Shown here: positions 8,652 to 33,872 of the stretch, in pieces
How the letters are laid out: each line of letters begins with the position of its first letter
How positions within the stretch are numbered: the first letter of the stretch is position 1
From: Cyanidioschyzon merolae
Taxonomy: Eukaryota
NCBI GenBank assembly: GCA_000091205.1
Contig: AP006502.2
Length of the DNA stretch: 64,000 bases
Direction: 5' to 3' (one strand)
Notes under the pieces: model-generated
What the model was told of the DNA's origin: nothing
Database searches by the model: none
What the model saw: only the letters and a program-made list of their open reading frames with translations
Translations under genes and position numbers: made by a program

Positions 8652-10352
8652 ATGAACGAAAGCAGCACGCACGGGGGTCCAGGCAAAACGCAACAGAGCT
8701 CACGACGTGCGCAGGAACCCCGGCAGACTCGTTCGAGACCCAGTGTGGTAGTCTCGGGAGCCGGTTCGAGGGCGTCACGCCCGCTGCTGCGCGGCACAGA
8801 GGAAGCGGAAAAGGTAGACCATGCGCCTTTGGAATCTAGTAGAAATTCTTTGGCTTCGAAACAACCGAATAATCAGACCGCAACGCTGAGTCAAGCCACC
8901 AAGTCGAACTCGATGACCCGAGGAAGCGGGTCCACCCCGGGGCAACGACCTGCCCCGGTACACCAAAGCGCAGCACCGTCCACAGTGGCCGCAGCGGCGA
9001 GCAGTACCCGGGAGTTGTATGCGCTGCGAGCGGAAGTGGCGAAACTTCGGCTGCGCTGCGAGGAACTGGAAAACGAGCTAGCGCTGCTTCGCAAGCAAGT
9101 GAGCACAGTTGCTCTGCCGCCTGTGGCATCATCCGCGTCGACAAACACCAGTAATGCCAAGGAGTTGGCGCAGGCCTCGCAAGCACCCGCTCCAGAAGCC
9201 AGTCAGGTGGCGGCGACTGGAGCCGCTGGAACACCCGCATCTCAAACGACCGCTAGACTTGCGTCTACGTCGCGCTTGCACAACGACATCACTTGGCATA
9301 GCGAAAGCCAAGTGCTCGACTGGGCCGATGAAATGGAAACCATGGAGCTCGAGCGTCGCGGGCGAAACAGCAGCACCGAAAAGTCGGTTGTGAACGTTCC
9401 TCGCCCGACGCCCGGCACCTGGACGAGGAAGCCAGCATCGGCATCGGGTGCCGGGCCTGAAAGGCCGCCCCAGCCGCCTTTACCATCCACGCGAGATACA
9501 GGACAGCAACAACGACAACTGAGTGAAGCGCAATCATTGGAACACCCACAGAGAATCCGGCAACGTGAGCCTCGTCCGCATGGTACAGAGCAAAACCGCG
9601 AAGCGCGTCAACAGCAGCGGCGGCAGCGTCGAGAGCGTCCTTTCCAAGAGCGAACGCTTACCGCAGATGCCAAGACGCAACCACACGCGAGCAGTGCAGC
9701 GAGCAAGTCTGCGGAAGCGCCACCACCAGTCCAGAGACCGCACCGAGAGACCGTAGAGAGACCGCCAGCGTCTGCCTGGCTGTTCGCCGTTCACGCTCGA
9801 GCACAGCCGGACAAGTTGCGTTTCCTGGTATCGAGTCGCGCAGCGGGACCGGAGTCGGCACCTGATCGATTTATTTCGCTTTCGTTTAGTGTATCGCGTT
9901 GGATCAATGACCAAGCCTTTCACAAGACACTGATGCGCATGCTTCTGCAATTGTGGCGGCGTCTTGCGCCACCAGCACTCGATTCTGGAACAACGCAACA
10001 GCAACAGCAACAAATACCGCCACCCTTAGCGGAGCTGCTTCGCCAACCTGAAACGGAAGAGCAGCGCCCGCTGGATCGCCAACAGGTCTGGGCACTATGT
10101 GAGCCGGTGCTGCTCGAGGCGTGCCGCCACCCGACCCTGCTGGTACTTCTCGATTGCCACGGGCTCAACGACAAGACGAAGCAGGCTGTGCGCTTTAATG
10201 TGGCGTACTTTGTGGAGGCAGCTGCAGCTGCTCGAGAGCGCTTTGAAGCGACGTTCGCAATACCACCGCGCCTGGTGCTGGTGCTCGAAAGCTACCCCGT
10301 TCAACGGCGACCGGTTCTCGGGGGCCATCCAGTGTATCCCGTGCAATGCTAA
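8652..10352 (+). CDS. Hypothetical low-complexity (S/T/Q/R/P-rich) protein with a coiled-coil segment, 566 aa
   Basis: Long ORF in a GC-rich region with a coiled-coil-like 'ELYALRAEVAKLRLRCEELENELALLRKQV'. The C-terminal ~120 aa is non-repetitive. No recognisable domain. Confidence 0.35.
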   Translation: MNESSTHGGPGKTQQSSRRAQEPRQTRSRPSVVVSGAGSRASRPLLRGTEEAEKVDHAPLESSRNSLASKQPNNQTATLSQATKSNSMTRGSGSTPGQRPAPVHQSAAPSTVAAAASSTRELYALRAEVAKLRLRCEELENELALLRKQVSTVALPPVASSASTNTSNAKELAQASQAPAPEASQVAATGAAGTPASQTTARLASTSRLHNDITWHSESQVLDWADEMETMELERRGRNSSTEKSVVNVPRPTPGTWTRKPASASGAGPERPPQPPLPSTRDTGQQQRQLSEAQSLEHPQRIRQREPRPHGTEQNREARQQQRRQRRERPFQERTLTADAKTQPHASSAASKSAEAPPPVQRPHRETVERPPASAWLFAVHARAQPDKLRFLVSSRAAGPESAPDRFISLSFSVSRWINDQAFHKTLMRMLLQLWRRLAPPALDSGTTQQQQQQIPPPLAELLRQPETEEQRPLDRQQVWALCEPVLLEACRHPTLLVLLDCHGLNDKTKQAVRFNVAYFVEAAAAARERFEATFAIPPRLVLVLESYPVQRRPVLGGHPVYPVQC

Positions 10353-11153: not shown

Positions 11154-13538
11154 TTAGCACTTCCATCGATTTCCACAGTGTGTGCACGTCACAAACGTCG
11201 TCATCGGTTCATCTGCGGAGCGTGTTTGCATTTGGAAATAGGTGCAGGAACGTTGACCGCATTTGCCACAGCGGAACTGATCCGTACTTGCTGCTTGTGG
11301 AATACCCCTTTGTTTGTGGAAGAGCATTCGTTCAGCAATTTCCGCTTCCCGCTCCCGCGCCTGCTCTGTTTTCAACGCTTCAGCGCTCATATCCACGAGC
11401 TCCGCTGGCGACAGCTCTTGTCGCAGTAGACGCCACCGCAGGTCCGCGTTTCGCCGTAGGTTTGCTTTCAGTTCCCGATACTTGGCACTATAGTCCGGGC
11501 GGGCAAAGTCGAAAGAGAACTTTGCATTCAGCGCCCGTTCTAGTTCGATACAAAGGGAACGACACAGATTGATTGTAGCTGCGTTCACGTGCTCTGTAGG
11601 TGTTGCCTCTTCAGTTGCTGCTGCGATGAAAACGTCAGTCAGCGCTCGCACGATATCTCCGCGTTTTCCGGGCGGCAGTGGTAACGCTGACACCATTGGC
11701 TCCGTCTGCATACGGTCTGAATGCTGCTGTTGCTGCTGATCACCGTCTACCTCGGTTGCGTTGGCAGTGTTCCACGCACTCTCCAATGTCGACACAGGTC
11801 CAGCGTCGAAGGAGCCGGTCTCTGTAGCGACCTGCTGCACTGCCGCGAACGCGCCTTCACGGCCAGCCGCATCCGCTACCCCGGCAACAGACCCGTGCAC
11901 GTCCATCCTGGCGTCAGCAGTTGTATGCAGGCTAGGCCCGAGGTCGTCGGGTTGTACACGACCAGCACCATTCAACCCCGATCGCGCGTTTGTCGCATCG
12001 TTTGGAGCGGCGAGCAGTTCGGAACCCGAGCTACTCGGATCGCGCGTTTGAAGCCGCTCGGACTCGCCAGTCGGCAACAGGGACGGCTCCTGCGACTCGC
12101 GCTGTGCCTCCGTAACGATGGCTTTCCATTTGCTGATAATCTCCTCGGCAAGCCGCCCGATCACTGCACTCTTCCCGTGAAGGCTCCTGCCGAGCGTCTT
12201 GATGGGCTTCCCAGCTCGACTCGTTCGAAGAACCTCCAGCGTTACCTGATATCGCAGTAATTCCGCAAGCTGAAGGGCGATTCTTCGCTCCTCGAGCTCA
12301 AAGGCCTCGGCGGCTCGCGCAGCGGCCAGACGGAGATCCTCTAACTGCGCAGCACACTCGCGATATTTGCTGCACCGGTCGCTCCAGGCCTGATGCAGCT
12401 CAGAGAGCATCGCCGAACGCTCTTCCAGGCCGTGCACAACGCGTGTGAGGTCCTCAGCACCAATACTTCGTCGACTCGTGAGGCCTGTTGCACTTGCCCG
12501 AATCGCGTCAAGCGTTAACGGGGTGGGTTCCGGCGGTGCGGGCGGATACTTCTCAAGCTTGCGCTCGAGGAGAGCCAAACGCGCTTTCATCTGTGCGTTC
12601 TGCTGGCGCAGTGCAGCCAGCTGACGACTGTGTTCGGTTCGGCTCGCTCCAGTGCCGTGACTGGAGCTTCCGGCTCCACGACTACGTTCCGCCATGCGCA
12701 CTTGCTGAGCATTCCCGGTACCTAGGGAGCCTGGTGAGGCTCCCGCCGGCCCACTGGCAGTCCCAGAAGAGATGCCGTCGGACAGAGGCGTCCACTCGGT
12801 GCCGGTGGACGACTTGCGTTTGTGTGCCCGTCGCTTGTTCGGGTCGTGAGAGCGATCCAGCGCTCTGCGCTCAGCGGTACTCTCGGATGAGGCTTCGTCG
12901 ATTCGTGCGGGGTACGCGTCACGACACTTGGCACTGCCGTCGTCGCCCTCCGAGAGGTCATGCTCTGGCTCGGATACGGCATACTCGCTGGAACTCGCAG
13001 CAGTCTCGGTTCCATCGGAGTCCTCCGCTGGTATCTTGCGTCTCTGCTTTAGGCGCCTCCGCGTAGCCGTGGCCTCGCTTGGGTCCGAGTCCAGAAACCC
13101 AGCACGCTTGTCACTGGTCGCGTGGTCCGCTGCTGCCGCAGACGCTGTCGAAGCGGGAGCCACACGAGCACCACGCAGCGTCGACGCTGCTTCCGTCAGT
13201 GCAGCATCCGTAGCAGCGGCATCCGTTGTAGCAGCTGTCACGGTTTGCATGGCTGCTGTGCTCAACGCGCCCTCTTCAATTGCCTCGGCTATAGCCTTCC
13301 GCACTGCATCGTAGAAGCGGTGCGTTGGTTTCACGCACTTGTCCATGTTCTCCGCGAACGCGACCAGGTTCTCCCGTGTCACCCAGGCATGCTGACTATC
13401 GTTAAAAAAGTTGACATTAAAGCGATTCCCTTTCCGGTGGTTCCCTTTAGCGTCAGGCGCGATGACACCCGGCCACCAGGGGTACGACGGGAGCTTCGCC
13501 CACACGAACGCGCCGAGGTACGGCTCCCAGTCGGACAT
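11154..13538 (-). CDS. PWWP-domain / TFIIS-type transcription elongation factor fusion (794 aa)
   Basis: The N-terminus 'WEPYLGAFVWAKLPSYPWWPGVIAPD' is a PWWP domain. The C-terminus 'CGKCGQRSCTYFQMQTRSADEPMTTFVTCTHCGNRWKC' is a canonical TFIIS domain-III zinc ribbon with the intact acidic hairpin RSADE. The central region (about residues 560-700) is TFIIS-central-like. Confidence 0.75.
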   Translation of the reverse strand: MSDWEPYLGAFVWAKLPSYPWWPGVIAPDAKGNHRKGNRFNVNFFNDSQHAWVTRENLVAFAENMDKCVKPTHRFYDAVRKAIAEAIEEGALSTAAMQTVTAATTDAAATDAALTEAASTLRGARVAPASTASAAAADHATSDKRAGFLDSDPSEATATRRRLKQRRKIPAEDSDGTETAASSSEYAVSEPEHDLSEGDDGSAKCRDAYPARIDEASSESTAERRALDRSHDPNKRRAHKRKSSTGTEWTPLSDGISSGTASGPAGASPGSLGTGNAQQVRMAERSRGAGSSSHGTGASRTEHSRQLAALRQQNAQMKARLALLERKLEKYPPAPPEPTPLTLDAIRASATGLTSRRSIGAEDLTRVVHGLEERSAMLSELHQAWSDRCSKYRECAAQLEDLRLAAARAAEAFELEERRIALQLAELLRYQVTLEVLRTSRAGKPIKTLGRSLHGKSAVIGRLAEEIISKWKAIVTEAQRESQEPSLLPTGESERLQTRDPSSSGSELLAAPNDATNARSGLNGAGRVQPDDLGPSLHTTADARMDVHGSVAGVADAAGREGAFAAVQQVATETGSFDAGPVSTLESAWNTANATEVDGDQQQQQHSDRMQTEPMVSALPLPPGKRGDIVRALTDVFIAAATEEATPTEHVNAATINLCRSLCIELERALNAKFSFDFARPDYSAKYRELKANLRRNADLRWRLLRQELSPAELVDMSAEALKTEQAREREAEIAERMLFHKQRGIPQAASTDQFRCGKCGQRSCTYFQMQTRSADEPMTTFVTCTHCGNRWKC

Positions 13539-14037: not shown

Positions 14038-15618
14038 ATGCATATAGATCAGACGGGATCAGCGTACTGTGCGGCAGTTGCAGCTCTGCGGCGGGAGCGC
14101 TTCCGAAACCTCGGGGCAGCGGTGAGCCTCGTTCATGCTGCAGGGGCGCTTCTGGTGGAGGCCTGCGTCCTGCTGCCCCGCCGGACAGCAGGAACAGCAG
14201 CAGCGACGTTCATAAGACTGTTATTTGTGGCGTGTAGCGTGCCCTTTTTTCTCGTCGGCTCGCTGATCGGCAGTGACTGGTATGCAACGGCACGGCGGCC
14301 GGCTCGACGCCGTGTTGCGTTGTCGCTGTTGGTGGCAGCGGGTGCACTTCACCAGGTCGCCATCCTGGGCTCACTGCAGCCGCTGCTTCCATGCTCGGCA
14401 CGAAGCAAGCGCTTGATACCTCTCTCGGATGGATTGATACTCGGTGCCTTGTGTGGATGGTGGTTTTGGCTCGTGTTTGATCGAGCGGAGCGTTTCGCTT
14501 TCGAGCTACCGCTGCTGGCAACGAAGCGAATGACTCGACTCCTGAGCGCACTGCGTTCTCTAAGACACCCGCGCAGTCCTATTCTGGGGCGTAGCTATAT
14601 GCCGAGGATCGTTGCCGGGTTCGGCCTGTTCGTGATAGCGCTTAGAGTGCACCGCAGGGCGTCATTGTGGGCAAATCTGTTCTTCCTATCGACGCTGATG
14701 CTCTCTGCATGCCTCATGGTACTACTGTGGAGCGCACTGCTCCAGCTCGTGCAGGTATGGATGACGAGTCCAGTCACGCTAGGAGGAAATTCATCGCTTG
14801 GGTCGCATCACAGAGGGAAACGAGCTTCAGTGACTGTCGCGAGGTTTGAGCATGCGCTCCGTAATCGAGTCGCTGCGACGCTGTCTCTGTCACCGCAACG
14901 CCAGTCGACACCGAAGCGGACCGCTATCGCCTCGGGCGCTGGTGAAGAGCTCCTCTGTTTGGTGCTGGAACACAGCGTACATTTTGGTCACGTCGACATG
15001 TTTCTGTACGCACTCTATGATTTGGAACGTGTCGCTCTCTTCGTTCCAGAGCGGAGACGACGATTGTTTGCGGATCCTCATGGCCGAGTTCTGCTCGCAT
15101 TGCTTGACATTTGTTTGGCCATTCTTGAACCGGGGGCGCTCGTGGAACGGTACACCGCTCCCAAGGACCAAAAGCAGCAGCGCCTCAGCCGAACGCGGCA
15201 CGTGTATCGACTTTCAAACGCTGGCTTGTTGCACGCCTATCGCATGACGGCTACCTCGCTGGGCGCCTTGATCTTGCACAGCAGTCATGAAGATCCATTC
15301 GGACTCGTCCAGCGTCGCACTGGGCTGACACAACAGCGCTTGGAACAGCTTGCTGCAGCGCTTACCGCGATTCGATCGCGTTGTGGTACGCTGCGACCTC
15401 GACCTGGTCTAGAGCAAGCAGCGTTCAACGCTTTATGCGATACCCTGCAGCGATGTCGAGCTTGGGCAGCTGTCGAGGCAGCACCGACCTGCACAGGGAC
15501 ATTGACGCATTCCTCAACGATGCCACGGGTTTGGCGCGAGTGGCCAACGTCTATCGAGGAGGCTGCTCGGCACCTGGAGCAGGTGCGAGCTTTTCTGACG
15601 CATCACACGCTCAAGTAA
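14038..15618 (+). CDS. Hypothetical membrane protein (526 aa; several hydrophobic helices in the N-terminal half)
   Basis: Long ORF with multiple TM-like segments ('LLFVACSVPFFLVGSLIGSDWY', 'LSLLVAAGALHQVAILGSL', 'GFGLFVIALRV', 'LFFLSTLMLSACLMVLLWSALLQLV'). No recognisable catalytic motif. Confidence 0.35.
   Translation: MHIDQTGSAYCAAVAALRRERFRNLGAAVSLVHAAGALLVEACVLLPRRTAGTAAATFIRLLFVACSVPFFLVGSLIGSDWYATARRPARRRVALSLLVAAGALHQVAILGSLQPLLPCSARSKRLIPLSDGLILGALCGWWFWLVFDRAERFAFELPLLATKRMTRLLSALRSLRHPRSPILGRSYMPRIVAGFGLFVIALRVHRRASLWANLFFLSTLMLSACLMVLLWSALLQLVQVWMTSPVTLGGNSSLGSHHRGKRASVTVARFEHALRNRVAATLSLSPQRQSTPKRTAIASGAGEELLCLVLEHSVHFGHVDMFLYALYDLERVALFVPERRRRLFADPHGRVLLALLDICLAILEPGALVERYTAPKDQKQQRLSRTRHVYRLSNAGLLHAYRMTATSLGALILHSSHEDPFGLVQRRTGLTQQRLEQLAAALTAIRSRCGTLRPRPGLEQAAFNALCDTLQRCRAWAAVEAAPTCTGTLTHSSTMPRVWREWPTSIEEAARHLEQVRAFLTHHTLK

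Positions 15619-20190: not shown

Positions 20191-20225
<35 letters not shown>
20191..20225. repeat. (CAG)n / (GCT)n microsatellite, ~11 units. It lies in the upstream in-frame part of the NT-C2 gene ORF, where it would encode poly-Ala.
   Basis: 'agcagcagcagcagcagcagcagcagcagcagc'. Confidence 0.95.
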
Positions 20226-21955: not shown

Positions 21956-22254
21956 GATAGATTGTATTCGTTGTGAAGCTTTTCAGACACTAAACACTCA
22001 CCAGAGGCGACTATTCACCGAACCTCCGTCGAATGGTTAGGCAGCACGAAAACTCCAAACCGGAACGCTGAAAAATGGCGCGGGATATTCGAATAGCAGA
22101 CACCTGACGCGTTTCGCCGTTCAAAAATCGAACGCCGCGGCCCGCGGTGTGCAGGAGTGGCGATCGGCGCGCCCTAGACATAACGCCTCCAACTGATGTG
22201 CAGACGCCTCCCAGCCTTTTGGACCGGCCAGCCACTACTGCTTCCAATCTTGTC

Positions 22255-23729
22255 TCATATAGTTCCACCTTGGGAGATTGTCCAACAAAGTTCCCTCTCA
22301 TATACTCTGGAGGGACTTCTTTCCATTACCGCAGATTTCCGTATCTTGATAGCGGTGTTAAAGTCTCGGTTCACAAACTCCATCCGTTTCTTGCCATCAC
22401 TGGTTGTACATACTAATGCAAGTAGCCCTCGAACTTTCGCCCTCCTTTCCATTGGCTCTTCCTTCAGCGGTCCGTACTTTGTGAAATCCTCAGGGCTCCG
22501 CTTACACTTTTCCATCTCTACGCTCTGAAGTGCGCACCTCAGTTCATGGTGTGTATACGACGCACGGAACTCGTCTATTGGTATCATAACGAAACGCCGT
22601 GCACACTCCTTGTACGTTCTTGTCGACGGAGCTGGCGTAGTTCCTTTTTCGGCGCCCAGCGCCCTGTCCCATAGGCTACAACGAGCGTCTGATTTTCATC
22701 CATCTTCAGGGCGCTCAACTGATGGAAAAAGTTCGCGAATGCACGCTGCTTCCCACAGCATAGATTCATTCGCAAACGAGCCCACCGAGGCTTGGTATAC
22801 TCCTCCTACAGTGCACCCCAATGCGCAATGCGAACTTCCATGAATTTCCGAAAAGCTTCAAAGTCCGCTCCTCGGCTAGTCACCTCGCTCAAAGCTTCCA
22901 GGATCTCTTTCATTCCTGAATTCCAAGTCTCGATTTTCTTCCTTGCATTCATTATACCCGATTCTGGGTAATATCTCGCTCTCCACAACCTCAACAGACG
23001 CATGTCTTTCTGACGTAAATTACCGTCGGTCCCATCTTCCGCACGCTTCGGTGCTGCGATGGTTATGATATTCGTGTTTCCGGGGTCCGCGCCAACGACA
23101 AAGTCGTTCTCATGCACTTTCTGCGCCGCAGGACCCGCCTTCTTGGTTTATTCATGCTTCTCCGCGTCAACGACAAGGTCGTTCTCATGCACTTTCTGCT
23201 CCGCTGGACCCGCCTTCTTGGTTTATTCATGCCCCGCCGCGCCAACGACAAGGTCGTCATCCTGCACCCCCTGCGTCGCAGAATCCTCCTCTTTGTTTTC
23301 TTCATGCTCCGCCGCATCAACGACAAGGCCGTTATCCTCCACCTCCTGCATCGCAGGACCCGCCTCCTTCTCATCTTCATGGTTCGCCGAGGGCGGAACT
23401 GGACGATCTTTCTTCAACCGCCGATAGTGTACACACTTGGCTACTCCATCGGTCTCGATCATCCCAGTGAACAACTTTTGCTTGCTCATTCTCAGACGTT
23501 TGAAATTGAAGATATTCTTCCAGTGCGTCTCCCGGTTTTCGCCGGTGAAGTTCTCCCTGCTAACAGTGAACTTCGGGCTGATCTCCTTCATGATGCCGTA
23601 GAGGACTGTGGAGTCGATAGTCACGATATGTGACTTGATGTTGCACAACGAAATGACGTTGAAGCGCTTCTCCATTAGGAAGGCCTTCCGTCTCTCCCAC
23701 TCTTCATTGTTTTCCTCACTCAGCTTCAT
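22255..23729 (-). pseudogene. TnpB/Fanzor-like RuvC nuclease, copy A, split over four or more frames (23729-23223, 23117-22806, 22775-22584, 22587-22255). It is either a pseudogene or intron-interrupted.
   Basis: RuvC-I-like '[16 protein letters not shown]'. Zinc-finger remnant 'IPIDEFRASYTHHELRCALQSVEMEKCKRS', compare TnpB 'VDPkyTSqtCs.CG'. RuvC-III-like 'VNRDFNTAIKI', compare 'RDvNAAiNI'. Continuity across the B-copy break is visible here ('ARKKIETWNSGMKEILEALSEVTSRGADF'). Confidence 0.5.
23094..23380. repeat. Internal ~72-bp tandem repeat (~4 units) within repeat-family copy A; on the minus strand it encodes repeated acidic 24-aa units ('[25 protein letters not shown]'-like)
   Basis: 'gccaacgacaaggtcgttctcatgcactttctgc.ccgc.ggacccgccttcttggtttattcatgc' recurs at ~23094, ~23166, ~23238 and ~23310. 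Copy C has ~2 units (33930-34080) and copy B ~1. Confidence 0.7.
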
Positions 23730-23942
23730 CTCCGCATTGCATTCGAGCTCTCGATCCTAAAACACGAAATAGCGCAGGACGAGGCGATAGTATCTTCCCT
23801 TATCTTTTTTCAACTCTGATATCTTGTCTGTTGGATTCGCCAACCCCAAGATCGCGCGGTGCTCTTGCATAGCCGCACGGATTACAGAAGATTCATTCGT
23901 GCTCCTGCGTGACTTCTTCTTGTCGACGAATTCGATCTCATG

Positions 23943-24311
23943 TTAATGCTTGCGATCCTTCGAGATGCCATTGATAATCGCCCATATTCCTTTGCGAGAG
24001 ATGCCCGGGCAGAGTGCAAATACGGTGCGTATCATGAAACGTTCGAGGTTCATTGTGAAATGGTTCTTCAGGTTCGTGAGGTACTTCATCACTCCGTATA
24101 TGTAAATATCCCAGTAACCCTTGCATCGAGTACTGTTGAAGCTGTAAAAGGGATGATTTTCGTGGAGGCCATGGACTAGCACATTTTCCCGCCGCGCTTC
24201 CTCTGTACCAAGCATCAGCTGACGAATAAAGGTCTTATCGAAAAACTCGTCCGGAATCTCGACCGTTTCCATGTGCATCACATCGCGATACATCTCCCTC
24301 GCCAAATGCAT
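23943..24311 (-). CDS. Conserved small ORF of the repeat family (copy A, 122 aa), function unknown. The antisense frame 23940-24179 is also open and conserved.
   Basis: 'GVMKYLTNLKNHFTMNLERFMIRTVFALCPGISRKGIWAIINGISKD' is conserved with copy B (30660-30962) and copy C (34612-34914). Confidence 0.4.
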   Translation of the reverse strand: MHLAREMYRDVMHMETVEIPDEFFDKTFIRQLMLGTEEARRENVLVHGLHENHPFYSFNSTRCKGYWDIYIYGVMKYLTNLKNHFTMNLERFMIRTVFALCPGISRKGIWAIINGISKDRKH

Positions 24312-24529
24312 CAGTCCTGACGACGCCTTGACAATACTCTTGGATTACGAGTCGACACGTTTTTCGATAGCGTCTCGCAACTTTTCCTTACACGGATCCT
24401 TGATATGTCCAAGAAGAAAGGTTTTTACCACCTTTTCGTCGTACAGTTGTCGTCCTTGCCGCTTACGACGTAGGGCCTCCCCCTTTGGGTTCTCCTTCTC
24501 TTCCTTTTCTTCTGGACTCAGCACTGTTT

Positions 24530-24620
24530 TTTGTTTTTTTTTCTAGCAGCCGGCGACCCTGGGCCTCCAGGATCGTGGACTTGCTTTTTTCATAACTTTG
24601 TTTTTTTGTTTTTTTTTGAA
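24530..24620. repeat. T-rich low-complexity tract flanking repeat copy A
   Basis: 'ttttttgtttttttttctag...tttttttgtttttttttgaaaaac'. Confidence 0.7.
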
Positions 24621-27600
24621 AAACAACGCTCTTTGAACCCTTCTGTTATATATTTCGAAAAAACACTTGACTAGACTTGTTTGAAGTTCTAAACAAAAAT
24701 CAACTGAAAGACTATACTTGGCTACGACCTGAACGGAAATCTGACGTTTACAGCTGAACAACACGCTGCTGGTCAGGATCGCGTTTAACTTCAACGGCGG
24801 CATCCGCGTCGCGTCTCCTGCCTGGCTGAATCTCCCAGGTGCGCAAATCGACAGCACTATTTAGAACAAAGAAAAGAGATTCACGACCAAAAAGCAAGGA
24901 TATAACGGATTCTTTCGTCCTCTACGATAAACGATAAAACAGGGAAAAGTTTTCCGTACTGTCGCAAGTCCTCCTTCCAGGCGGAAAGTTCCGCGAGCCT
25001 GACGAGTCTCCCAGACTCGTGCTTCGTGCTCCCCCCAATGGCAGGTCTTGAAGCGAGACCTCGGCAACTCGTCTGGAATGCAGTTTATTCCAAGATCGCG
25101 AGTGGCTGGAGTGCGTCTGGTCGTCGCCCTGATCGTCGTTTTCTTCCAGCAAATTGCATGGCTCCGTTGCAGGCAGCAAGTCTGTCTGCGCAGTTGCCAA
25201 ACTCCCAGGAGAATGATGAATCCCAGGCCCCGTGTCGGCTGAACCACACCTCGAGCCGATGCCCCCAGTGATATGACAAAGTTATTCTGTTCCCGTGCTG
25301 AATCCGGACCAGCAGTATAGGCTCTGTTGCTGCAGGCGCTCGGGGCAGGCGCTCGGCACACCATAGAACCTACGAAACGACCATCGCATCCGAGAGAAAG
25401 CATGGATAATGGAGCTTAAAGGTAGGGTGGAACATGATAGACACTCTTTCGATCACCAATATCCATCCCGCAATCTAGGAGCCGTGGTCCATGAAAACAT
25501 TCTGGAAAACACAGCGATCTGTGGATTTGAGATTTGCGCATACACTGCCGCGGATACCTTGACGCGTCGCCACGGCGATCGATCGGAACATAGAAAGCAC
25601 AGGTGCCGAAAAGTATCACAAATTGGAAAGGGAACCATTTTCAATCGTTCAAGATTGACCAAGAGAACGACTTGTTGTCGAGTGTTGTCCTTCTTTTTAG
25701 TGGCTACACAGCTGTCGCGGAACCGATAAATCAAGAGGATGCAGCCAAAACCCTCAACGAACGCAGATGCGGTAGCCCAACTGTCTGAGAGCTCCGAATC
25801 ATCGATAGCCGGGCATGATGGACGGCGTGAGGCGTACGATCGAGTAGGATGGCGAGGTCAGGACCCGTCTCGATGCTTTGGGTTCCTTTCCGATGAATGA
25901 GGACATTTTCTGCGCCTTATTTCGAGCGAATATTAGCGTCCAACTAGCGAAATCGGACAATCTCCGGCTGGAGTGCATGACATCGTGCACGGGACGCCAA
26001 CGGTATCCGCAGTGCAGAGACAACAAGCGTGGATTCAAGTGTCTGCTCAATATGTAGGAAATAGAAATGACGAACATGTCGTGTCGTTTGGTCGAGGCCC
26101 GTGGCTCTGGAGGTGCTGCAACGCGCTGAACCTGCACTTTTGCTCCGTCGACCAGCGCGCACAAAGTGTGCAGGAACTGAATCTTTCCATCTCCCATCGA
26201 TGCAATCCAGACGATTTGAGCGCATCACGAGCACAAGGGCACGTTGAGCGTGCTAGACGACAACAGCAACATCGTGAAGCAATGACGAATGCACCAGATG
26301 ATGGAAAGTTAGTTGACCATCCGTTTATGGCGAGGCAGTCGAGGGCAAGAGACTTGCGATGATATGACTCTCCGCGCAACAGTACGCGCCATGACTCGAT
26401 GCGTCGTGACTGGAAGGCTCCCATCACGAGCGAGGGATGTCTCGTGCTTCCCGGGCGGACGTCCGTCGGCTCGGTATCCAGCGAGCTTTCGCAGGAATCG
26501 TTTCGTACCAAGCGTGTGCGTTGTGCTGCGATGCGGAAGACTTGCGCTCACGAAATCAGTGCCTGGGAGAGGGTCATAGATTCCCGTCTGGCTCAAGGCC
26601 CTGGCATGATACGGGGTCACCAATGCGGCAAGGCTGGTGCGTTCTATGCATACATCGGGAACGGTTTCCCCGGTAATCGGTGACCAAGAATGGTGCCATA
26701 TCATTCAGTAGTACTGAATATTGGTATATATAGGCAGAACGTTTCACCGTAAACCTCTGATGGATTCCTAAAGCAACGTCAGACTGAATCGGATCGGGTC
26801 CGTTCAGATAACCCGAGTGTTTACGCTCAACATGAGGGTCTCTTCTCCTTGTCATCAACATGAGCGTTTTGCGCGCTTCCACTGCGAATGCTTCCTTTTT
26901 CTCTCGCTTATATGCGGTTTTCAGTGTGCCGGTCTCTACGATCCCTCCAGCTCCGATGTCAGCTGTTGGGGAGAGTTCATGAGAGCGTGTGAGTCCCGCT
27001 CTCGTCGCTTCCTGCTGTTGTCGACGCATTGCATGCCGAGGCTCAAGTACGATCTACATATCGATTCCCATTTTCACCGTCTTTGTAGATAGCCTTGATG
27101 CGCTCTTCGCAGCGCTGTTCATTCACTGAGCTCAGGTGCTCCCATCTGTCCACCGAGTTTGCTTCTCAGAGCATTGCCAACCTCTATAGTGTTCGAAAGC
27201 TTCGTTCATCTCGTTCGATGCCGTCCTCCGTTTCCGCGCTCGGTGCCGTACCGTACGATCATGAGCAACTTCTGTATGAAAACTACGGCGACTGCGCTGT
27301 CCTCTGCACGTGGGAGCGCGCGCTGTTCCATGAAAGCCCGTACTTGTGGAACGCAATGTTGTCCTTGATGAAACAAGTACCGAGAAGCAAAATCCAGGAT
27401 ACAGAACATGATAACGAATTTCGATGTTCCGGCGCCCCGTTCGAGCTAAGCGATGCTGCACGCTCCACTGGAAACAATCGCTCCGATGAATCTAGTCCGA
27501 GTCCGAGACGCTCTTTTATGCAAAGAGCAGAAATGCGAGCTTCTCGCAACGTATCATAGGAGAAGTATCATGCCGTTGTCGAATGGCGTCTTATCGATGG

Positions 27601-30600
27601 GAACAAAGATGGAAAAATCTGATTTTTTGAACGGAACAGATGATTCGACTTGACAAGTTCCGTGAAGTTTCGGCTTATACTTGTGACCGAATCGTTCACG
27701 GACGACCTCGAGTATCTTTCCTCGTCAACCTAGCGGTGCAAAGGGCTGCACCCATGATTTGCCTTGAAATAAAGAGATCGAATCCCTGAAGGATTTGTGA
27801 TATGCGCGTGTCTCACATAAAGAAAAGAGATGGGCGGAGGCTTTGCCTCATGAATTCGATGATGATATCGGTAATTTCACGAACCTTCGTTCGGCGGCGT
27901 CGCCAAACATCCTGAATCCGGTGACGTAACAAAAGCCAACGGCAAAGCGTCGTAGCGGGCACTTCACCACTGAGAACGCTGAGCCTACGTATGCATCCGC
28001 AAGCCCTTCGTGCAGCACTCGAAATTACAATTCTATACATGTACATACGGTTCGGAAAAAAATCTCAGGGCATGAACAGTGCGACCAGTTCCATGTTTCA
28101 GTTTACTCTGACACGCGTCCTAGTGCAGGTAGCGGGGTGCGAGCTTCAGCGGCATCGTCCTCGCTTGACCAAGAAGCCTTGTAGTTACAGCGGGCGCGCT
28201 CCGATGCCTGAACGTCATCGCGGGCCCATCGGACAAGTCTCGCACTGAACGCCAATAACGCAACCCTTGTATTCATCTTCTGCGTGTTGTGCAGGGGCCC
28301 GCCCTGGCAGCGGTTTCTGCATAACTCGGCACCGCTCAGAGGACCTGTGGCACATCCACGGGACAAGGACATGATACGCGGGCGGCGGGTACCGGTCCTG
28401 GCCCTGGTTCCGCTGACGACGGCACCTCAGCCATAACTTGCGTACTGCGACGACGAAAGCGACGTGCTTGGTGGCACACGCTGCGCGCCATGGTGTCGCT
28501 CTCGGTTCCAAACAGCTGCCGAGGTATACCATCACGAAGCCATGTTGCAGGACGTTCACAGAATGGGGCAGGTACAGCCTGTGCTTCCCGCTCAGTCCAA
28601 GTCGGGGAACGAGTCAGCACACCAATAGGCCCAGCGAGACGACGTGTCGCAGCCGTCACAGACGCTTGTTCTATATCCTCGACAGGCTCATGCCTGGTGT
28701 TGGTACCGCTCAGCGAACCAACAGTTGACGTACTCGAGGAGCGTGTGCGCACACCAGGTCCGGTGCGCGCATCGCCTCTGTAGTGCCATTTTGTGAGCGC
28801 ATTCTCGTGCATCCTCGAGCGATCTCGGGCCTCGACGTGTACGCCTCTTGGAAGGTGTTTGTGAGTCGATATCGAGAAGCTTTGGGGCGGAACAGTTTGC
28901 GTGAAGCTGAAGGAGCGAGCCCTCTGAAGCTTTGCGCTTTGGGGTTTGACTCTCAAGTCACCCGAGATCGTACGTTCGCGAACGCAGATGCACCAGCACC
29001 GCCTCACGGCTACGTTTTGTATTCCGTTTTCGCTGGGCCGGCACGCAACCTCCTCGCGTCGGTCTGGGACCATTTGCGACGTAGTGGCGTGCGGTATGCG
29101 TGGTATCAGGCAGAGAGCTCCTGTAGAGCGAGCACCGTCAGGTCAACGGTCACCAAAGCACACGTTGTCAGTTCCGGGAAACGCGGCCACATGCGCGGAG
29201 CCAGGGACTCGTACGGAAAATGATGTGCTGCTGACGTTGCGAGGAACCCGAACTAGTATTTTTCTTTCACCCTTTGTCCTAATAGTCTTCCTTTTCTGGC
29301 AAATAGTACGCTTTTTTACGAGGGTATTGCTTTTTCTATTGATCTTCTCGGGTGTGAGCGCCTTCTTATGGGTGCGGCGCAGCAGAATGTGGGTGCTGGA
29401 AGTTCGTGACTGTATCGGGAGAATGGCCACGATGCGTTTCCAGAGGCGTCAAATGAGCGTCGTTCCCGTCAGTATCGTAGTGAAAGCCCGGTGCAGGACG
29501 CAGCAGCACGCGCCACAGCCAGCTACAGCAGCCCAGACGCATGACAGGCGGCGTGCGCAAGGGACACCAGCGCCCGAAGTGCCAGAGTGGAGGGATGATA
29601 TTGATTTTTCTTTGACGCCACAGCCGTCTTGCTGGCTACCGTCGACACTGAGCATCGACTGCTCTTCTCTTTGGGCACTGCTGTGGCGCTTGGGTCCGGG
29701 CGACGATTAGCCCAGTGTACGTTAATCAGCACGAATCGATCCATTCGGTGAGCGTACCGGATCGCCAGCCATTGACATGCTTCGACTTGTGAACAAAAGG
29801 AATTTCGGGGCAGTGTGGATTGGGTGCTTCTCTCTGTGACGGGCGCCAAAGCATCTCATCGTTATGCTGTGAAGAGGGCTGTCTCCGAAGATGACCTTTT
29901 CATCGTGCGCTGTCCAGAGGGTTCTGTAGACAGAGCGAACCATGTCAAAGATGATCTCGCTCGGAAAGCCTGGAGAACATCAAAAAGAATTCATAAAATT
30001 TCGCTGGGAATATTTCAGCCCGTACAGCCGTTCCCAATGCTCTGCAGTAAAAGGTTGCCACTGTTCGAACAAGCGTGCAAGCAACGACCTGGAGCAGCGG
30101 CGAGGCTGCGAGCGTTTCAGAGACCCGGAGGCTTGCAGCGCGGGAGTGTGCCATGCGCTCGCTCTGGCGGCAACGTGAGTACCTGTCGAGGCCGTACCGC
30201 GGTGTCGCTTTCTAATTTGCACCGCGAAACAGGAAACGAATGTCATGGGCTTCACTAGTGCATCTGCAACTGACAGCGATGCCAGGCAGCGAGGCAGCTG
30301 GACGCAATCCGGGGCCTTGTTCGGGCGCTGAATGTTTTGTTCGATGACAAAACGTGTATATGGACCATGGATCCCAGGTTGCGTGATGGATGGGCATTGG
30401 CTTTCTGGAAATCACTCTTTATTTGAAGCTCCAAGTTTTAGTTCGAGTACCCGTACTTCCTCTCGGACTTGGGGGTCGTTCTGTACGTTCCATCGTGCGC
30501 CGAGTGCCTGCAGCGCTGCAGCCCGCAATAGCGCCTAAACCGCTGATGCAGATGCTGCACAGAGAGAGAACGGCTTTGCCATGCCACTGAGGGCGTCATA

Positions 30601-30659
30601 TCGCGGAACGCTTCACCAGATACGGAGTCGGAGTACGTAATCATTCTGGGAGCCTAAAA

Positions 30660-30962
30660 ATGGGCAAGCAGACGTCCTCTATGCGGCGGCGCGAATCGAT
30701 ATACCAGGATTACAACCTGAGCAGGGCGATGCCCAGACACAGCGCGTCCGCTCCTAGTCCCAGAATACACTCTGACGGGGCGATGAAGTACCTCACGAAC
30801 CTGAAGAACCATTCGACAGTGAGCCTCGAAGGTTTTATGATACGCGCCGTGTTTGCAGCTCACCCGGGCATCTCTGGCAGAGGGATATGGGCGATTATCA
30901 ATGGCATCACGAACGATTGCCGACATGAAGGTCAGATCGAATTTGTCGACAAGAAGAAGTGA
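30660..30962 (+). CDS. Conserved small ORF of the repeat family (copy B, 100 aa); the antisense 119 aa frame 30654-31013 is also open
   Basis: 'AMKYLTNLKNHSTVSLEGFMIRAVFAAHPGISGRGIWAIINGITNDCRHEGQIEFVDKKK'. Copy C differs at 2 of 100 residues. Confidence 0.4.
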   Translation: MGKQTSSMRRRESIYQDYNLSRAMPRHSASAPSPRIHSDGAMKYLTNLKNHSTVSLEGFMIRAVFAAHPGISGRGIWAIINGITNDCRHEGQIEFVDKKK

Positions 30963-31212
30963 CACAGGAGCACGAATGAAGCTTTTGTGATCCGTGCGGC
31001 TACACAAGAGCACCGTGCGGTACTGGGGCTGGCGAATCCGGCAGCAAAGATATCAGAGTTGAAGAAAGATAAGGAAAGATACTATCGCCTCGCCCTGCGG
31101 TATTTCGTGTTTCTGGACCAAGAACTCGAACGCAAGGCGGAGATGAAGGTGAGAGGGAAAAAATGAAGAGTGGGAGAGACGGAAGGCTGTCCTAATTGGG
31201 AAGCGCTTCAAC

Positions 31213-32397
31213 GTGGTTCCAATGTGCAACATCAAGTCAGATTTCGTGACTATCGACTCGAGAATCCTTTACGGCATCTTCAAGGAGATCAGTCCGGAGT
31301 TCAATGTACGGAAGACAGAGTTCACCGGCGAAACCCGGGAGGCGTACTGGAGGAATATATTCGATTTCAAACGTCTCAATACGAGCAAGCAGAAGATATT
31401 CACGGGGATGATCGAAACCGGTGTAGTAGGCACGTGTGTCCACTATCGGCGGGTGAAGGCGGATCGCCCTATCGTGCCTTCGGCTTTCCCCGTGACGAAG
31501 CGTGAAGATAAGAAGGAGGTGGGCCCTGGAACGTATAGTCCCCTGGATAACGACTTCGTGGTAAGCATGGACCCAGGGAACACGAATATCATAACCATCG
31601 CAGCACCCAAGCGTGGAAAAAATAGTAACAACGGCAACTTATGCCAGAGAGACATTCGTCTTTTAAAGCTCTCGAGAGCTAGAGACTACCGAGAATCGGG
31701 AATAATGAATGCGAGGAAACAAAGTGAGACCTAGAATTCAGGAGTGAAGGATCACCTGGAAGCTATGAGCGAGGTGACGAGCCGCGGAGCGGACTTTAAA
31801 GCTTTTCGGGAATTCATGAAAATTCGCGTTAGTCATTGGGGGACGCTGTGGAAAGAATATTCAAAGCCCTGGTGGGCTCGTCTGCGTATGAGTCTGTACT
31901 GTGGGAAGCATCGTGCATTCGCGAACTTTTTCAATCAGTTGAGCGCATTGAAGGAGGACGAGAGTCAGAAGCTCGTGGTAGCATACGGAGCAGGGCGCTG
32001 GGCGTCGAAAAAAAGGACTACGCCAGCTCCAACTACAAGAACGTACGAGGAGTGCACAAGGGGTTTCGTTACGATACCTGTAGATGAGTTCCGAATGTCG
32101 TATACACACCATGAGCTGGGGTGTACACTCCAGAGTGTCGACATGGAAAAGTGCCAGCGGAGCCCCGAGGATATACAAAAGTACGCAGCGCTGACGGAAG
32201 AGCAAATGGAGAGGGAAGCGAAAGTTCGAGGATTGCTTGCACTGGTGAGTACAGCTACTAACGGCAAGAAACGTATGGTGTTTGTGAACCGGAACTTTAA
32301 TGCCGTTATCAGTATAAGGAGATGTGCGGTGATGGAGACGAGACCTCCGAAGTTGAGAGAATTTTATGGGGCAACCTCTCAAGGTGGAACTATATGA
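31213..32397 (+). pseudogene. TnpB/Fanzor-like RuvC nuclease, copy B, split in two frames (31213-31734 and 31744-32397) by a stop or frameshift. The RuvC-III Asp is replaced by Asn.
   Basis: '[16 protein letters not shown]' (RuvC-I). 'LVVAYGAGRWASKK' lies where RuvC-II is expected but has no Glu. 'VTIPVDEFRMSYTHHELGCTLQSVDMEKCQRS' is a zinc-finger remnant. 'VNRNFNAVISI' is RuvC-III-like with D->N. Confidence 0.5.
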
Positions 32398-32653
32398 GAA
32401 AAAGTTGAAACCAGTAGTGGGTGGCCATTCCAAAAAAGCTGGGAGGCGTCTGCACTTTAGCTGGAGACGTTCTGTCTAGGGCGCGTCGGTCGCCACTACT
32501 GTACGCCGCTGAAGGCAACGTTTTTCTTTCGAAAGGCGTTCGCTGGAGGTGTCCTGCACTTGAAACTGTGGTTCAAGGACACACGGGTGGCTGGTTCCCG
32601 AAACTCGCGTCCAACACTACCGACGAGCGACGCCGTGCTCCCCGAACGAAGCG

Positions 32654-33073
32654 ATGAAACACCGCATAAACCTGCGTAAGCTCGGTCGAGACTCAGCCCA
32701 CCGCTTAGCTCTCTTAAGAAATCTTGTTTCTAGTCTGATTGAGCACGAGAGCATAGAAACGACCGTGGCGAAAGCGAAGGAGTTGCGTCGCGTTGCGGAT
32801 AAAATGGTAACGCTTGGAAAGCGTGGCGACGGTCTGTCCCGAATCCGAGCTCTTGGTTTCGTTCGTGGACCGCATCTTGTGCAAAAACTGTTTCGTACGC
32901 TTGCGGAGCGATATCGTGAACGTAACGGTGGCTATACTCGAGTGATGCGATCGAGGAACCGACGAGGCGACAACGCCCCAATGGCTATCGTTGAACTCGT
33001 TGACTCGCCGAAGGGAGTAATACGCCGGCCACTGGAACACTACCAACGTTCAGAGCAGCGGCAATCAGTGTAA
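32654..33073 (+). CDS. Ribosomal protein bL17 (bacterial/organellar type), 139 aa
   Basis: 'MKHRINLRKLGRDSAHRLALLRNLVSSLIEHESIETTVAKAKELRRVADKMVTLGKRG...NGGYTRVMRSRNRRGDNAPMAIVELVD' aligns along the full length of bacterial L17. No long presequence, as is typical for mitochondrial bL17 (e.g. yeast MRPL8). Confidence 0.85.
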   Translation: MKHRINLRKLGRDSAHRLALLRNLVSSLIEHESIETTVAKAKELRRVADKMVTLGKRGDGLSRIRALGFVRGPHLVQKLFRTLAERYRERNGGYTRVMRSRNRRGDNAPMAIVELVDSPKGVIRRPLEHYQRSEQRQSV

Positions 33074-33872
33074 CACAAACCATTGATCGGTGCATGAGAC
33101 CATGAAACCGCGGGCATGGGAATCTAAAGCGCGGAAGCAAATGGCCATGCCGGTGGCGGCACCTGTGAAATGAAGTTACAGTGATGAATTGGAACGCTGT
33201 ACCCAGCAGGAGAGGTATTCCTGCCCTGTCATCGCTCAAAATTGAGAGCCTCAAAGCTGGTACTCGATGCTCTAGAGTAGAGGGTGTTTTCACTGCTGGG
33301 ATTAACATGGACAGCTTCATTGCCGGGTCAGTTGGTCCACTCTGTGCACTCTCGGCCTGGGCCGTATAAGGGCTTCGAACCGTTTTATGCTGCGGAAAGG
33401 TTGACGCCATCCATAACGCGGCAGCCGTCCACCGTAAAGGATCGCTTCGCGGTAGCGCCGTGATTATGAGGCCGCCACTCCTAGAACTGAGCTCCAAAGC
33501 GCTCGGCAACGCCACCTGCTTATGCATGTGTACGCGTTGCACGTACCGGATCGCCAGCACGAGCTGCATGCTGTCTGGTGTGCTTTCACGTAATGAGCTT
33601 GGAAGACTAGAATCCTGCGTTATCACGGAGGCATGCGCGGCACGCGGACCTCGACACGCTGCACCTCGAACGCGTTTGCGTCTGACAAGTGTTGGGCCAC
33701 GCTGAGGACTTCCGTTCCAATCTCGTAAATCCGTGTCGAATGTGGTAAAACAGCCAACGGATCGCAGAGAGTCTCAACTAAGTGAGCTGGATATTACAAA
33801 AGAGGCTGCTTCCGGGGACACTATTCGAGAATCTCAAAAGTGGCATGTCTTTCTGACGTAATTTACCGTCAG

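What the first reader, a model, noticed from the sequence alone, without database searches (positions are those of the whole stretch)
11154..13538. PWWP-TFIIS fusion: elongation-factor zinc ribbon with intact catalytic acidic hairpin coupled to a chromatin-reader domain
The C-terminal 40 aa are an almost textbook TFIIS domain III, including the 'QTRSADEP' acidic hairpin that stimulates Pol II transcript cleavage. The N-terminus is a PWWP domain ('AFVWAKLPSYPWWPGVI'), whereas canonical TFIIS has the LW/domain-I there. Known TFIIS-central-domain relatives with reader domains (PHF3, Bye1, Dido) lack domain III. A PWWP reader plus a catalytically competent TFIIS ribbon is an unusual architecture. 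It could couple H3K36me or DNA binding to backtracked-Pol II rescue.
Basis: partly seen in the sequence, partly recalled or inferred. Interest (0 to 1): 0.5.

Follow-up and report, generated by a model that had tools for sequence, protein, structure and literature searches.

The report
Red-alga TFIIS with PWWP domain

Summary
Window 11154-13538 (-) is an uninterrupted 794-aa ORF. Pfam matches above threshold are PWWP (aa 9-89), TFIIS domain I/Med26 (424-475), TFIIS_M (627-741) and the TFIIS zinc ribbon (755-793). The four Cys and the QTRSADEP acidic hairpin are intact.

Domain I is not replaced by the PWWP. It sits in the middle of the protein, so this is a complete three-domain TFIIS with a PWWP added at the N-terminus.

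The protein is 794/794 identical to XP_005539464.1/BAM83428.1, "probable transcription elongation factor S-II" of Cyanidioschyzon merolae 10D. Uzureau et al. 2008 (PMC2610381) described PWWP-TFIIS proteins in trypanosomes. They also named C. merolae CMT501C as a TFIIS with an N-terminal PWWP.

Points added here:
- The same colinear architecture is found in Cyanidiococcus, two metagenomic Cyanidiales lineages and two Porphyridium species.
- The PWWP aromatic cage (Y19/W22/F44) is conserved.
- A conserved leucine-zipper-like helix (298-331) precedes domain I.
- Porphyridium also has a short TFIIS paralogue.

Verdict: already known, low interest. The function of the PWWP is still untested.

The parts
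11154..13538 (-). Complete single-exon CDS (794 aa plus stop) of the PWWP-TFIIS protein. It equals C. merolae 10D XP_005539464.1/BAM83428.1, almost certainly locus CMT501C.
   Evidence: ORF. 794/794 identity to P0010. Orthologues of 782, 793 and 703 aa are colinear.
13272..13514 (-). PWWP domain (Pfam aa 9-89; the confident AF2 block is aa 1-93). The aromatic cage is Y19 (13482-13484), W22 (13473-13475) and F44 (13407-13409).
   Evidence: Pfam PF00855, E 7.1e-16. The PDB alignment to NSD2 PWWP1 puts Y19/W22/F44 on Y233/W236/F266. pLDDT is 78-93. Foldseek hits are NSD2, NSD3, DNMT3B and HRP-2 PWWP. W22 and F44 are invariant and position 19 is Y or F in 6 red-algal proteins.
12975..13061 (-). 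Conserved short motif inside the disordered linker 1 (aa 160-188): a basic NLS-like stretch RRRLKQRRKIP followed by an acidic Ser/Thr cluster EDSDGTETAASSSEY.
   Evidence: It is an island of invariant columns in otherwise variable sequence among the Cyanidiales and lies in a region with pLDDT below 50. The NLS and phospho-site reading is inference.
12546..12647 (-). Leucine-zipper-like helix (aa 298-331). The heptad a/d positions are L307, L310, N314, M317, L321, L324, L328 and Y331.
   Evidence: AF2 predicts a single long helix 298-329 with pLDDT 85-92. Heptad register. It is nearly invariant in the Cyanidiales and the heptad pattern is kept in Porphyridium. Dimerisation is inference.
12090..12458 (-). 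TFIIS domain I / TND-type helical bundle (AF2 helices at aa 361-483; Pfam Med26 424-475), with W471 of the LW motif.
   Evidence: Pfam PF08711, 31.1 bits against a cut-off of 20.6. A weak alignment to yeast TFIIS domain I places W471 on the yeast Trp. pLDDT is about 83-93. W471 is invariant.
11316..11660 (-). TFIIS central domain II (Pfam TFIIS_M aa 627-741; AF2 block 618-745), the Pol II-binding domain.
   Evidence: Pfam PF07500, E 9.4e-15. Alignment to yeast Dst1 and human TCEA1 chains from Pol II complexes. Foldseek hits 3po3_S and 1pqv_S.
11160..11276 (-). TFIIS domain III zinc ribbon (aa 755-793). The Cys ligands are C757, C760, C785 and C788. The acidic hairpin is QTRSADEP, with D776-E777 at 11208-11213.
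   Evidence: Pfam PF01096, E 8.6e-19. Residue positions. All are invariant in 6 red-algal orthologues. The hairpin and flanks are identical to yeast.

Best explanation

Shown here: the protein has every part of a canonical TFIIS. Domain I is a TND helical bundle. Domain II binds Pol II. Domain III is a zinc ribbon whose D776-E777 hairpin would reach the Pol II active site through the secondary channel and stimulate cleavage of backtracked RNA. The protein also has an N-terminal PWWP domain with an intact three-residue aromatic cage, two long disordered linkers, and a conserved leucine-zipper-like helix in front of domain I. The same colinear layout occurs in other Cyanidiales and in Porphyridium, so it is an old red-algal form of TFIIS and not a chance fusion.

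Inferred:
- The C-terminal half works like yeast or human TFIIS on arrested Pol II.
- The PWWP, through its cage and a basic surface, holds the factor on methyl-lysine-marked nucleosomes or DNA in transcribed chromatin. This would raise its local concentration where Pol II meets nucleosome barriers.
- The zipper may make the protein dimeric or bind a partner.
- The gene is probably the only TFIIS in this small genome.
For: - Identity: 794/794 match to XP_005539464.1/BAM83428.1 of C. merolae 10D, on a contig of 1,621,617 bp.
- Gene order: PGI, DUF547, x, TFIIS, x, NT-C2, tubulin, the same as in Cyanidiococcus yangmingshanensis and a third Cyanidiales genome.
- Domains: four Pfam matches above the gathering cut-offs.
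- Similarity to solved TFIIS: E 2e-25 to yeast TFIIS over domains II-III, with QTRSADEP and the four Cys identical.
- PWWP: NSD2 PWWP1 cage residues align with Y19/W22/F44.
- Structure: the AF2 model has confident blocks at 1-93, 298-485 and 618-794. Foldseek matches TFIIS in Pol II complexes and PWWP crystal structures.
- Conservation: domains, cage, zipper heptads, W471 and the DE hairpin are conserved across 6 red-algal proteins.
- Same architecture in P. aerugineum and P. purpureum.
- Literature: Uzureau et al. 2008 named CMT501C as a TFIIS with an N-terminal PWWP. Their survey, which included C. merolae, found multiple TFIIS genes only in four other lineages.
Against: - No experiment exists for this protein. 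A full-text search for CMT501C found only the 2008 paper.
- In the trypanosome analogue, deleting the PWWP did not change subnuclear localisation. [quoted passage not shown] A PWWP on a TFIIS is therefore not necessarily a working histone reader.
- Which mark is read, if any, is unknown. I found no H3K36me3 data for C. merolae.
- That this is the sole TFIIS was not verified on the genome. The search with the Porphyridium short TFIIS was uninformative.
- The identification XP_005539464.1 = CMT501C is inferred from species, annotation and architecture. It was not read from a locus tag.
Confidence: 0.8

Rival explanations
1. The PWWP is not a methyl-histone reader here. It serves as a protein-protein or DNA-binding module, or is functionally dispensable, as reported for T. 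brucei TFIIS2-1. The protein then behaves as an ordinary TFIIS.
For: The ΔPWWP TbTFIIS2-1 localises normally. [quoted passage not shown]
Against: In the red-algal proteins the cage (Y/F19, W22, F44) is fully conserved from the Cyanidiales to Porphyridium and aligns with the NSD2 cage. The PWWP block is one of the most conserved parts of the protein, which argues for a selected ligand-binding function. The related TbTFIIS2-2 PWWP does bind H4K17me3 and H3K32me3.
Confidence: 0.25
2. It is a specialised, chromatin-targeted TFIIS paralogue that works beside a separate canonical (short) TFIIS in the same genome. This is the situation in trypanosomes and is what the first reader implied.
For: Porphyridium aerugineum has both a PWWP-TFIIS (P0021) and a 250-aa TFIIS with only domains II and III (P0065). 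They are only 38% identical over domains II-III. The short red-algal TFIIS proteins group with canonical TFIIS in a rough NJ tree.
Against: There is no second TFIIS in the 64-kb window. No Cyanidiales short TFIIS appeared among the listed hits of three database searches, although only the top 120-150 hits are shown. The 2008 survey of the C. merolae proteome did not list it among lineages with several TFIIS genes. C. merolae has a reduced genome.
Confidence: 0.12
3. The architecture is an artefact: two neighbouring genes (a PWWP protein and a TFIIS) read as one ORF, or an assembly chimera.
For: There are long low-complexity linkers (aa 94-297 and 486-617, pLDDT below 50). One Cyanidiococcus annotation splits the gene into models of 237 aa and 538 aa (P0020, P0014).
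Against: The frame is open and continuous over 2,382 nt. The same colinear ORF is found in four Cyanidiales lineages and two Porphyridium species, including transcriptome-derived sequences. The identical protein occurs on many independent metagenome contigs.
Confidence: 0.02

Closest known systems
Cyanidioschyzon merolae CMT501C (XP_005539464.1 / BAM83428.1, 'probable transcription elongation factor S-II')
   Same: The sequence is identical, 794/794. It is the same organism and it is the protein for which Uzureau et al. 2008 noted an N-terminal PWWP on a TFIIS.
   Different: Nothing differs. The window is this locus. The link from the accession to the CMT501C name is inferred and was not read from a record.
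Trypanosomatid TFIIS2-1 (Tb927.2.3580; Uzureau et al. 2008)
   Same: The domain order is the same: N-terminal PWWP, then domain I with the LW motif, then domains II and III with intact Cys4 and the Asp-Glu pair.
   Different: The authors judged it an independent (convergent) acquisition. Trypanosomes also have TFIIS1 and a degenerate TFIIS2-2. The TbTFIIS2-1 PWWP reportedly binds neither DNA nor methyl-histones. I did not compare the sequences here. Whether the trypanosome proteins have the zipper helix is unknown.
Canonical TFIIS (yeast Dst1, human TCEA1-3)
   Same: Domains I, II and III are present, with 32-50% identity over II-III. The QTRSADEP hairpin and the zinc ligands are identical.
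   Different: Canonical TFIIS is about 300 aa and starts with domain I. This protein has about 360 extra N-terminal residues (PWWP, disordered linker, zipper helix) and a 130-aa linker between domains I and II.
PHF3 / DIDO / yeast Bye1 (TFIIS-like proteins carrying reader domains)
   Same: A chromatin reader domain is combined with a TFIIS-type Pol II-binding domain II.
   Different: According to established knowledge of these families, those proteins have a PHD finger and a SPOC domain and lack domain III, so they cannot stimulate cleavage. This protein has a PWWP instead and keeps a complete domain III.
LEDGF/p75 and HRP-2 (PWWP plus a TND-type helical bundle, the IBD)
   Same: An N-terminal PWWP that reads H3K36me-marked nucleosomes is joined by a disordered linker to a TFIIS-N-terminal-domain-like bundle acting in Pol II elongation. 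The PWWP model matches HRP-2 and LEDGF structures.
   Different: LEDGF and HRP-2 have no TFIIS domains II and III and act as tethers or chaperones. The resemblance is functional and modular only. No orthology is claimed.

Membership tests
TFIIS / TCEA / Dst1 transcript-cleavage factors | C-terminal domain III zinc ribbon with four Cys ligands | tested here: met
   PF01096, E 8.6e-19, 67.5 bits against a cut-off of 21. C757, C760, C785 and C788, invariant in the orthologues.
TFIIS / TCEA / Dst1 transcript-cleavage factors | Acidic hairpin (invariant Asp-Glu in QTRSADEP) needed for cleavage stimulation | tested here: met
   QTRSADEP at aa 771-778 with D776-E777. It is identical to yeast in the alignment and invariant in 6 red-algal proteins.
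TFIIS / TCEA / Dst1 transcript-cleavage factors | Central domain II (TFIIS_M), the Pol II-binding helical domain | tested here: met
   PF07500, E 9.4e-15, 55.5 bits against a cut-off of 29.2. Foldseek matches TFIIS chains in Pol II complexes.
TFIIS / TCEA / Dst1 transcript-cleavage factors | Domain I (TFIIS N-terminal domain, LW motif) | tested here: met
   PF08711, 31.1 bits against a cut-off of 20.6, at aa 424-475. W471 is invariant. The helical bundle is confident in the AF2 model. Its position is internal, not N-terminal.
TFIIS / TCEA / Dst1 transcript-cleavage factors | Stimulates Pol II transcript cleavage and read-through of arrest sites | not testable with these tools
   This needs a biochemical assay. 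No published data exist for this protein.
PWWP domain (Royal superfamily methyl-lysine/DNA readers) | Sequence profile match and the β-barrel plus helix fold | tested here: met
   PF00855, E 7.1e-16, 58.9 bits against a cut-off of 25.6. AF2 predicts five strands and a C-terminal helix with pLDDT 78-93. Foldseek matches NSD2, NSD3, DNMT3B and HRP-2 PWWP structures.
PWWP domain (Royal superfamily methyl-lysine/DNA readers) | Three-residue aromatic cage | tested here: met
   Y19/W22/F44 align with NSD2 Y233/W236/F266 (the identity of the NSD2 cage residues is from my own knowledge of the literature). They are conserved in the red-algal orthologues.
PWWP domain (Royal superfamily methyl-lysine/DNA readers) | Binding of a methylated histone lysine and/or DNA | not testable with these tools
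   The trypanosome precedents are mixed. TFIIS2-1 does not bind. TFIIS2-2 binds H4K17me3 and H3K32me3.
PHF3 / DIDO / Bye1 TFIIS-like readers | TFIIS_M with PHD and SPOC domains and no domain III | tested here: not met
   Domain III is present and intact. There is no PHD or SPOC match at E ≤ 1.
Trypanosomatid TFIIS2-1 lineage (orthology) | Common descent of the PWWP-TFIIS fusion | not tested
Uzureau et al. 2008 concluded that the origins were independent.

The most novel reading that the evidence does not exclude
The PWWP-zipper-TFIIS layout may be the ancestral red-algal form of TFIIS, shared by Cyanidiophyceae and Porphyridiophyceae. In Cyanidioschyzon it may be the only TFIIS. All rescue of backtracked Pol II in this minimal eukaryote would then be carried out by a factor tethered to chromatin marks and possibly dimeric through its leucine zipper. 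A dimeric, nucleosome-anchored TFIIS has not been described in any organism.
Probability: 0.25. Interest if true: 0.4.

Novelty: already known. Interest (0 to 1): 0.15.

Why it matters
The finding changes little. The gene is annotated as TFIIS in a model red alga and its PWWP was pointed out in 2008.

The open question is what a methyl-lysine/DNA reader does on a catalytically competent TFIIS. No PWWP-TFIIS has a demonstrated chromatin-dependent function, and the trypanosome data are negative or mixed. C. merolae could answer this cleanly. It has a tiny genome, probably a single TFIIS, and (from my own knowledge) efficient gene targeting by homologous recombination. The conserved zipper helix and the presence of the layout in two deep red-algal classes are small additions to the record.

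Tried and rejected
1. My first guess was a trypanosomatid, because of about 57% GC, intronless long ORFs and a (CA)n repeat. The homologue search showed Cyanidiales instead, and the protein is identical to the C. merolae 10D protein.
2. The full-length word-indexed search returned only 3 hits. I suspect that low-complexity words filled the candidate list. The exhaustive representative search and a search with domains II-III alone were needed.
3. I looked for a second TFIIS in three ways. A tblastn of each domain against the window found nothing. The domain II-III search showed no other C. merolae or Cyanidiococcus entry. The search with the Porphyridium short TFIIS P0065 showed none either. 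The available genome collection holds only bacteria and archaea, so the C. merolae genome could not be scanned.
4. The NJ tree of domains II-III (175 columns, 26 sequences) did not resolve whether the Cyanidiales and Porphyridium PWWP-TFIIS proteins are sisters. It only separated them from a well-supported canonical group. I rely on the colinear architecture instead.
5. Literature searches for H3K36me3 in C. merolae gave nothing usable.
6. I considered the gene-fusion artefact and rejected it (see rivals).
Full report
**1. The observation**

Window 11154-13538 on the minus strand is a continuous ORF of 794 codons that starts with ATG.

A Pfam scan gives four matches, all above the curated cut-offs:

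| Pfam family | Residues | E-value |
|---|---|---|
| PWWP | 9-89 | 7.1e-16 |
| Med26 / TFIIS helical bundle (TFIIS domain I) | 424-475 | 2.1e-07 |
| TFIIS_M (domain II) | 627-741 | 9.4e-15 |
| Zn_ribbon_TFIIS (domain III) | 755-793 | 8.6e-19 |

Against the sequences of solved structures, aa 596-793 align with yeast TFIIS (E 1.9e-25). The stretch C-x2-C ... QTRSADEP ... C-x2-C is essentially identical. Residues 8-92 align with the PWWP domains of DNMT3B, MSH6 and NSD2.

**2.

The PWWP does not replace domain I. Domain I is present in the middle of the protein. Pfam finds it at 424-475. A weak HMMER alignment to yeast TFIIS domain I places W471 on the Trp of the yeast 'LW' motif.

The AlphaFold2 model was built on a six-sequence alignment (mean pLDDT 60.5). 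It shows a confident helical block from 298 to 485. In all, the model has three ordered blocks:
- aa 1-93, a PWWP β-barrel plus helix;
- aa 298-485, a long helix 298-329 followed by a helical bundle;
- aa 618-794, domains II and III.

Two disordered linkers, 94-297 and 486-617, rich in Ala, Ser and Thr, separate the blocks. Foldseek against the PDB returns TFIIS chains from Pol II complexes for the C-terminus (3po3_S, 1pqv_S, 7unc_O). It returns NSD2, NSD3, DNMT3B and HRP-2 PWWP crystal structures for the N-terminus. The protein is therefore a complete three-domain TFIIS with an added N-terminal PWWP module.

**3. Whose gene it is**

The homologue search found an identical protein and two relatives at 56-58% identity. 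One relative is from Cyanidiococcus yangmingshanensis. The 90% cluster of the identical protein contains BAM83428.1 / XP_005539464.1, 'probable transcription elongation factor S-II [Cyanidioschyzon merolae strain 10D]', on a contig of 1,621,617 bp. BLASTP against it gives 794/794 identities.

The neighbouring genes in the window are PGI, DUF547, an unknown ORF, TFIIS, an unknown ORF, NT-C2 and tubulin. The same order is seen in Cyanidiococcus and in a third Cyanidiales genome. The window is thus a piece of the C. merolae nuclear genome, or of a virtually identical strain. Identical contigs occur in JGI metagenome 3300009503.

**4. What is already published**

Uzureau et al. 2008 (Mol Microbiol 69:1121, PMC2610381) described T. 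brucei TFIIS2-1 as a TFIIS with an N-terminal PWWP, a domain I and functional domains II and III. [quoted passage not shown] They interpreted this as convergent with trypanosomes.

C. merolae's annotated TFIIS is the protein in this window and it has that architecture. The finding is therefore, almost certainly, CMT501C itself. A full-text search for CMT501C returns only that paper, so nobody seems to have studied the protein since.

The trypanosome data are sobering:
- Deleting the PWWP of TbTFIIS2-1 did not change its nuclear pattern.
- Its PWWP was reported to bind neither DNA nor methylated histones.
- The PWWP of the degenerate paralogue TFIIS2-2 binds H4K17me3 and H3K32me3 (review PMC8638923).
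- TFIIS2-2 associates with PAF1C and Pol II (PMC8559703).

**5. What I can add**

(a) Distribution. The exhaustive HMMER search of 1.84 billion representatives, Pfam scans and a local PWWP HMM show the same architecture in the following:
- four Cyanidiales lineages (C. merolae, Cyanidiococcus P0002, P0003 and P0018);
- Porphyridium aerugineum (P0021);
- P. purpureum (P0094, KAA8492982.1);
- two proteins of unknown origin, P0148 (which also has a Tudor-like match) and P0072.

The six red-algal proteins align colinearly: PWWP, acidic/basic linker, heptad helix, domain I, linker, domain II, domain III. This points to one old red-algal origin.

(b) The PWWP cage. In the HMMER alignment to NSD2 PWWP1, Y19, W22 and F44 fall on Y233, W236 and F266. 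These are the NSD2 aromatic-cage residues according to my own knowledge of the literature. W22 and F44 are invariant and position 19 is Y or F in all six red-algal proteins.

(c) A zipper-like helix. Residues 298-331 form one long predicted helix (pLDDT 85-92). Its a/d register is clean: L307, L310, N314, M317, L321, L324, L328, Y331. It is almost invariant in the Cyanidiales and the heptads are kept in Porphyridium. A coiled-coil dimerisation or partner-binding element is the obvious reading, but it is only an inference.

(d) Paralogues. P. aerugineum also encodes a 250-aa TFIIS with only domains II and III (P0065). It is 38% identical to that alga's own PWWP-TFIIS over domains II-III. At least that red alga therefore has two TFIIS types. 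A rough NJ tree puts the short red-algal proteins with canonical TFIIS and resolves nothing deeper.

**6. Is it the only TFIIS in C. merolae?**

There is no second copy in the window. No other Cyanidiales TFIIS appeared in the listed hits of three searches. Those lists are truncated and mostly unnamed, so this is weak evidence.

The 2008 survey built its TFIIS data set by iterative HMM searches of proteomes that included C. merolae. It reported multiple TFIIS genes only in trypanosomes, Paramecium, Drosophila and vertebrates. I take this as indirect evidence that the gene is the alga's single TFIIS. It needs a direct genome scan.

**7. Mechanism**

Shown by sequence and structure comparison: domain II and the linker into the zinc ribbon are TFIIS-like, and the ribbon has intact zinc ligands and the Asp-Glu hairpin.

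Inferred from the established TFIIS mechanism (Kettenberger et al. 2003, PDB 1pqv, among the hits): domain II docks on the Pol II jaw and funnel. Domain III enters the secondary channel and positions D776/E777 at the active site, which stimulates cleavage of backtracked RNA.

Inferred from PWWP biology: the cage and the surrounding basic residues bind a methylated histone tail together with nucleosomal DNA. This would concentrate the factor on transcribed chromatin. The 200-aa and 130-aa flexible linkers would let a nucleosome-bound PWWP and a Pol II-bound C-terminal half act at the same time. The mark that is read is unknown. Domain I probably binds other elongation or initiation factors, as TND domains do elsewhere. 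The zipper may dimerise the protein.

**8. Rivals**

- The PWWP may be a non-reader, as in TbTFIIS2-1 (confidence 0.25).
- The protein may be a specialised paralogue working beside an undetected short TFIIS (0.12).
- The gene model may be an artefact (0.02). Against this stand the continuous frame and the conservation in six species, although one Cyanidiococcus annotation does split the gene in two.

**9. Verdict**

The object is an annotated gene, and its unusual domain combination was already reported for this very species, so the novelty is 'already known' and the interest is low. What remains of value is that the function of a PWWP on an active TFIIS has never been demonstrated, and that C. 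merolae is a tractable system in which to test it.

Noticed in passing
window 22115-35238: A repeated element of about 2 kb is present in three copies: 22115-24097 (+), 30336-32538 (inverted) and 33825-35238 (+). Two arms of 1227 nt are 97% complementary, and the third copy is 80-85% similar. Copies A and C carry internal 75-bp tandem repeats (23087-23369 and 33929-34074). The surrounding 13 kb has no ORF of 255 aa or more, lower GC (0.49-0.53) and a strong negative GC skew at 22-24 kb, which is unusual for this gene-dense genome.
   Followed up: partly
P0065 (Porphyridium aerugineum, MMETSP0313) versus P0021: Porphyridium has two TFIIS types: a PWWP-TFIIS of 786 aa and a short 250-aa protein with only domains II and III. 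They are only 38% identical over the shared part. The short one is closer (48-57%) to the Cyanidiales PWWP-TFIIS than to its own genome's PWWP-TFIIS.
   Followed up: partly
L004 134-2611 (P0148, JGI 3300031465) and L005 68-1795 (P0072, Logan SRR25296943): Two further PWWP-TFIIS proteins come from unidentified organisms. P0148 also has a PTM/DIR17-like Tudor match between the PWWP and TFIIS_M, and its first cage position is Ser. P0072 has a degenerate 'REWP' motif.
   Followed up: partly
P0020 and P0014 (Cyanidiococcus yangmingshanensis KAF6005430.1 and KAF6005429.1): An older Cyanidiococcus annotation splits the orthologous gene into a 237-aa PWWP protein and a 538-aa 'RNA polymerase II elongation factor'. 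The newer assembly has one 782-aa model (P0002). The split is probably an annotation error.
   Followed up: no
window 12975-13061 (-), aa 160-188: An island of strong conservation lies inside the disordered linker: a basic stretch RRRLKQRRKIP followed by the acidic Ser/Thr cluster EDSDGTETAASSSEY. It looks like an NLS plus a casein-kinase-type phospho-patch or a short interaction motif.
   Followed up: no
window 8652-10352 (+) and 14038-15618 (+): The two genes flanking TFIIS (566 aa and 526 aa) have no Pfam match. They are nevertheless kept in the same positions in Cyanidiococcus and in a third Cyanidiales genome, so they are lineage-specific conserved proteins of unknown function.
   Followed up: no
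window 62554-62622 (-), 41999-42180 and 20191-20225: ARAGORN calls a tRNA-Ile(TAT) inside the long ORF 60650-62851 (-), which may be a false positive. There is a 70-bp tandem repeat (2.6 copies) in the intergenic region at 41999-42180. An (AGC)n run of about 12 copies lies inside the NT-C2 gene.
   Followed up: no
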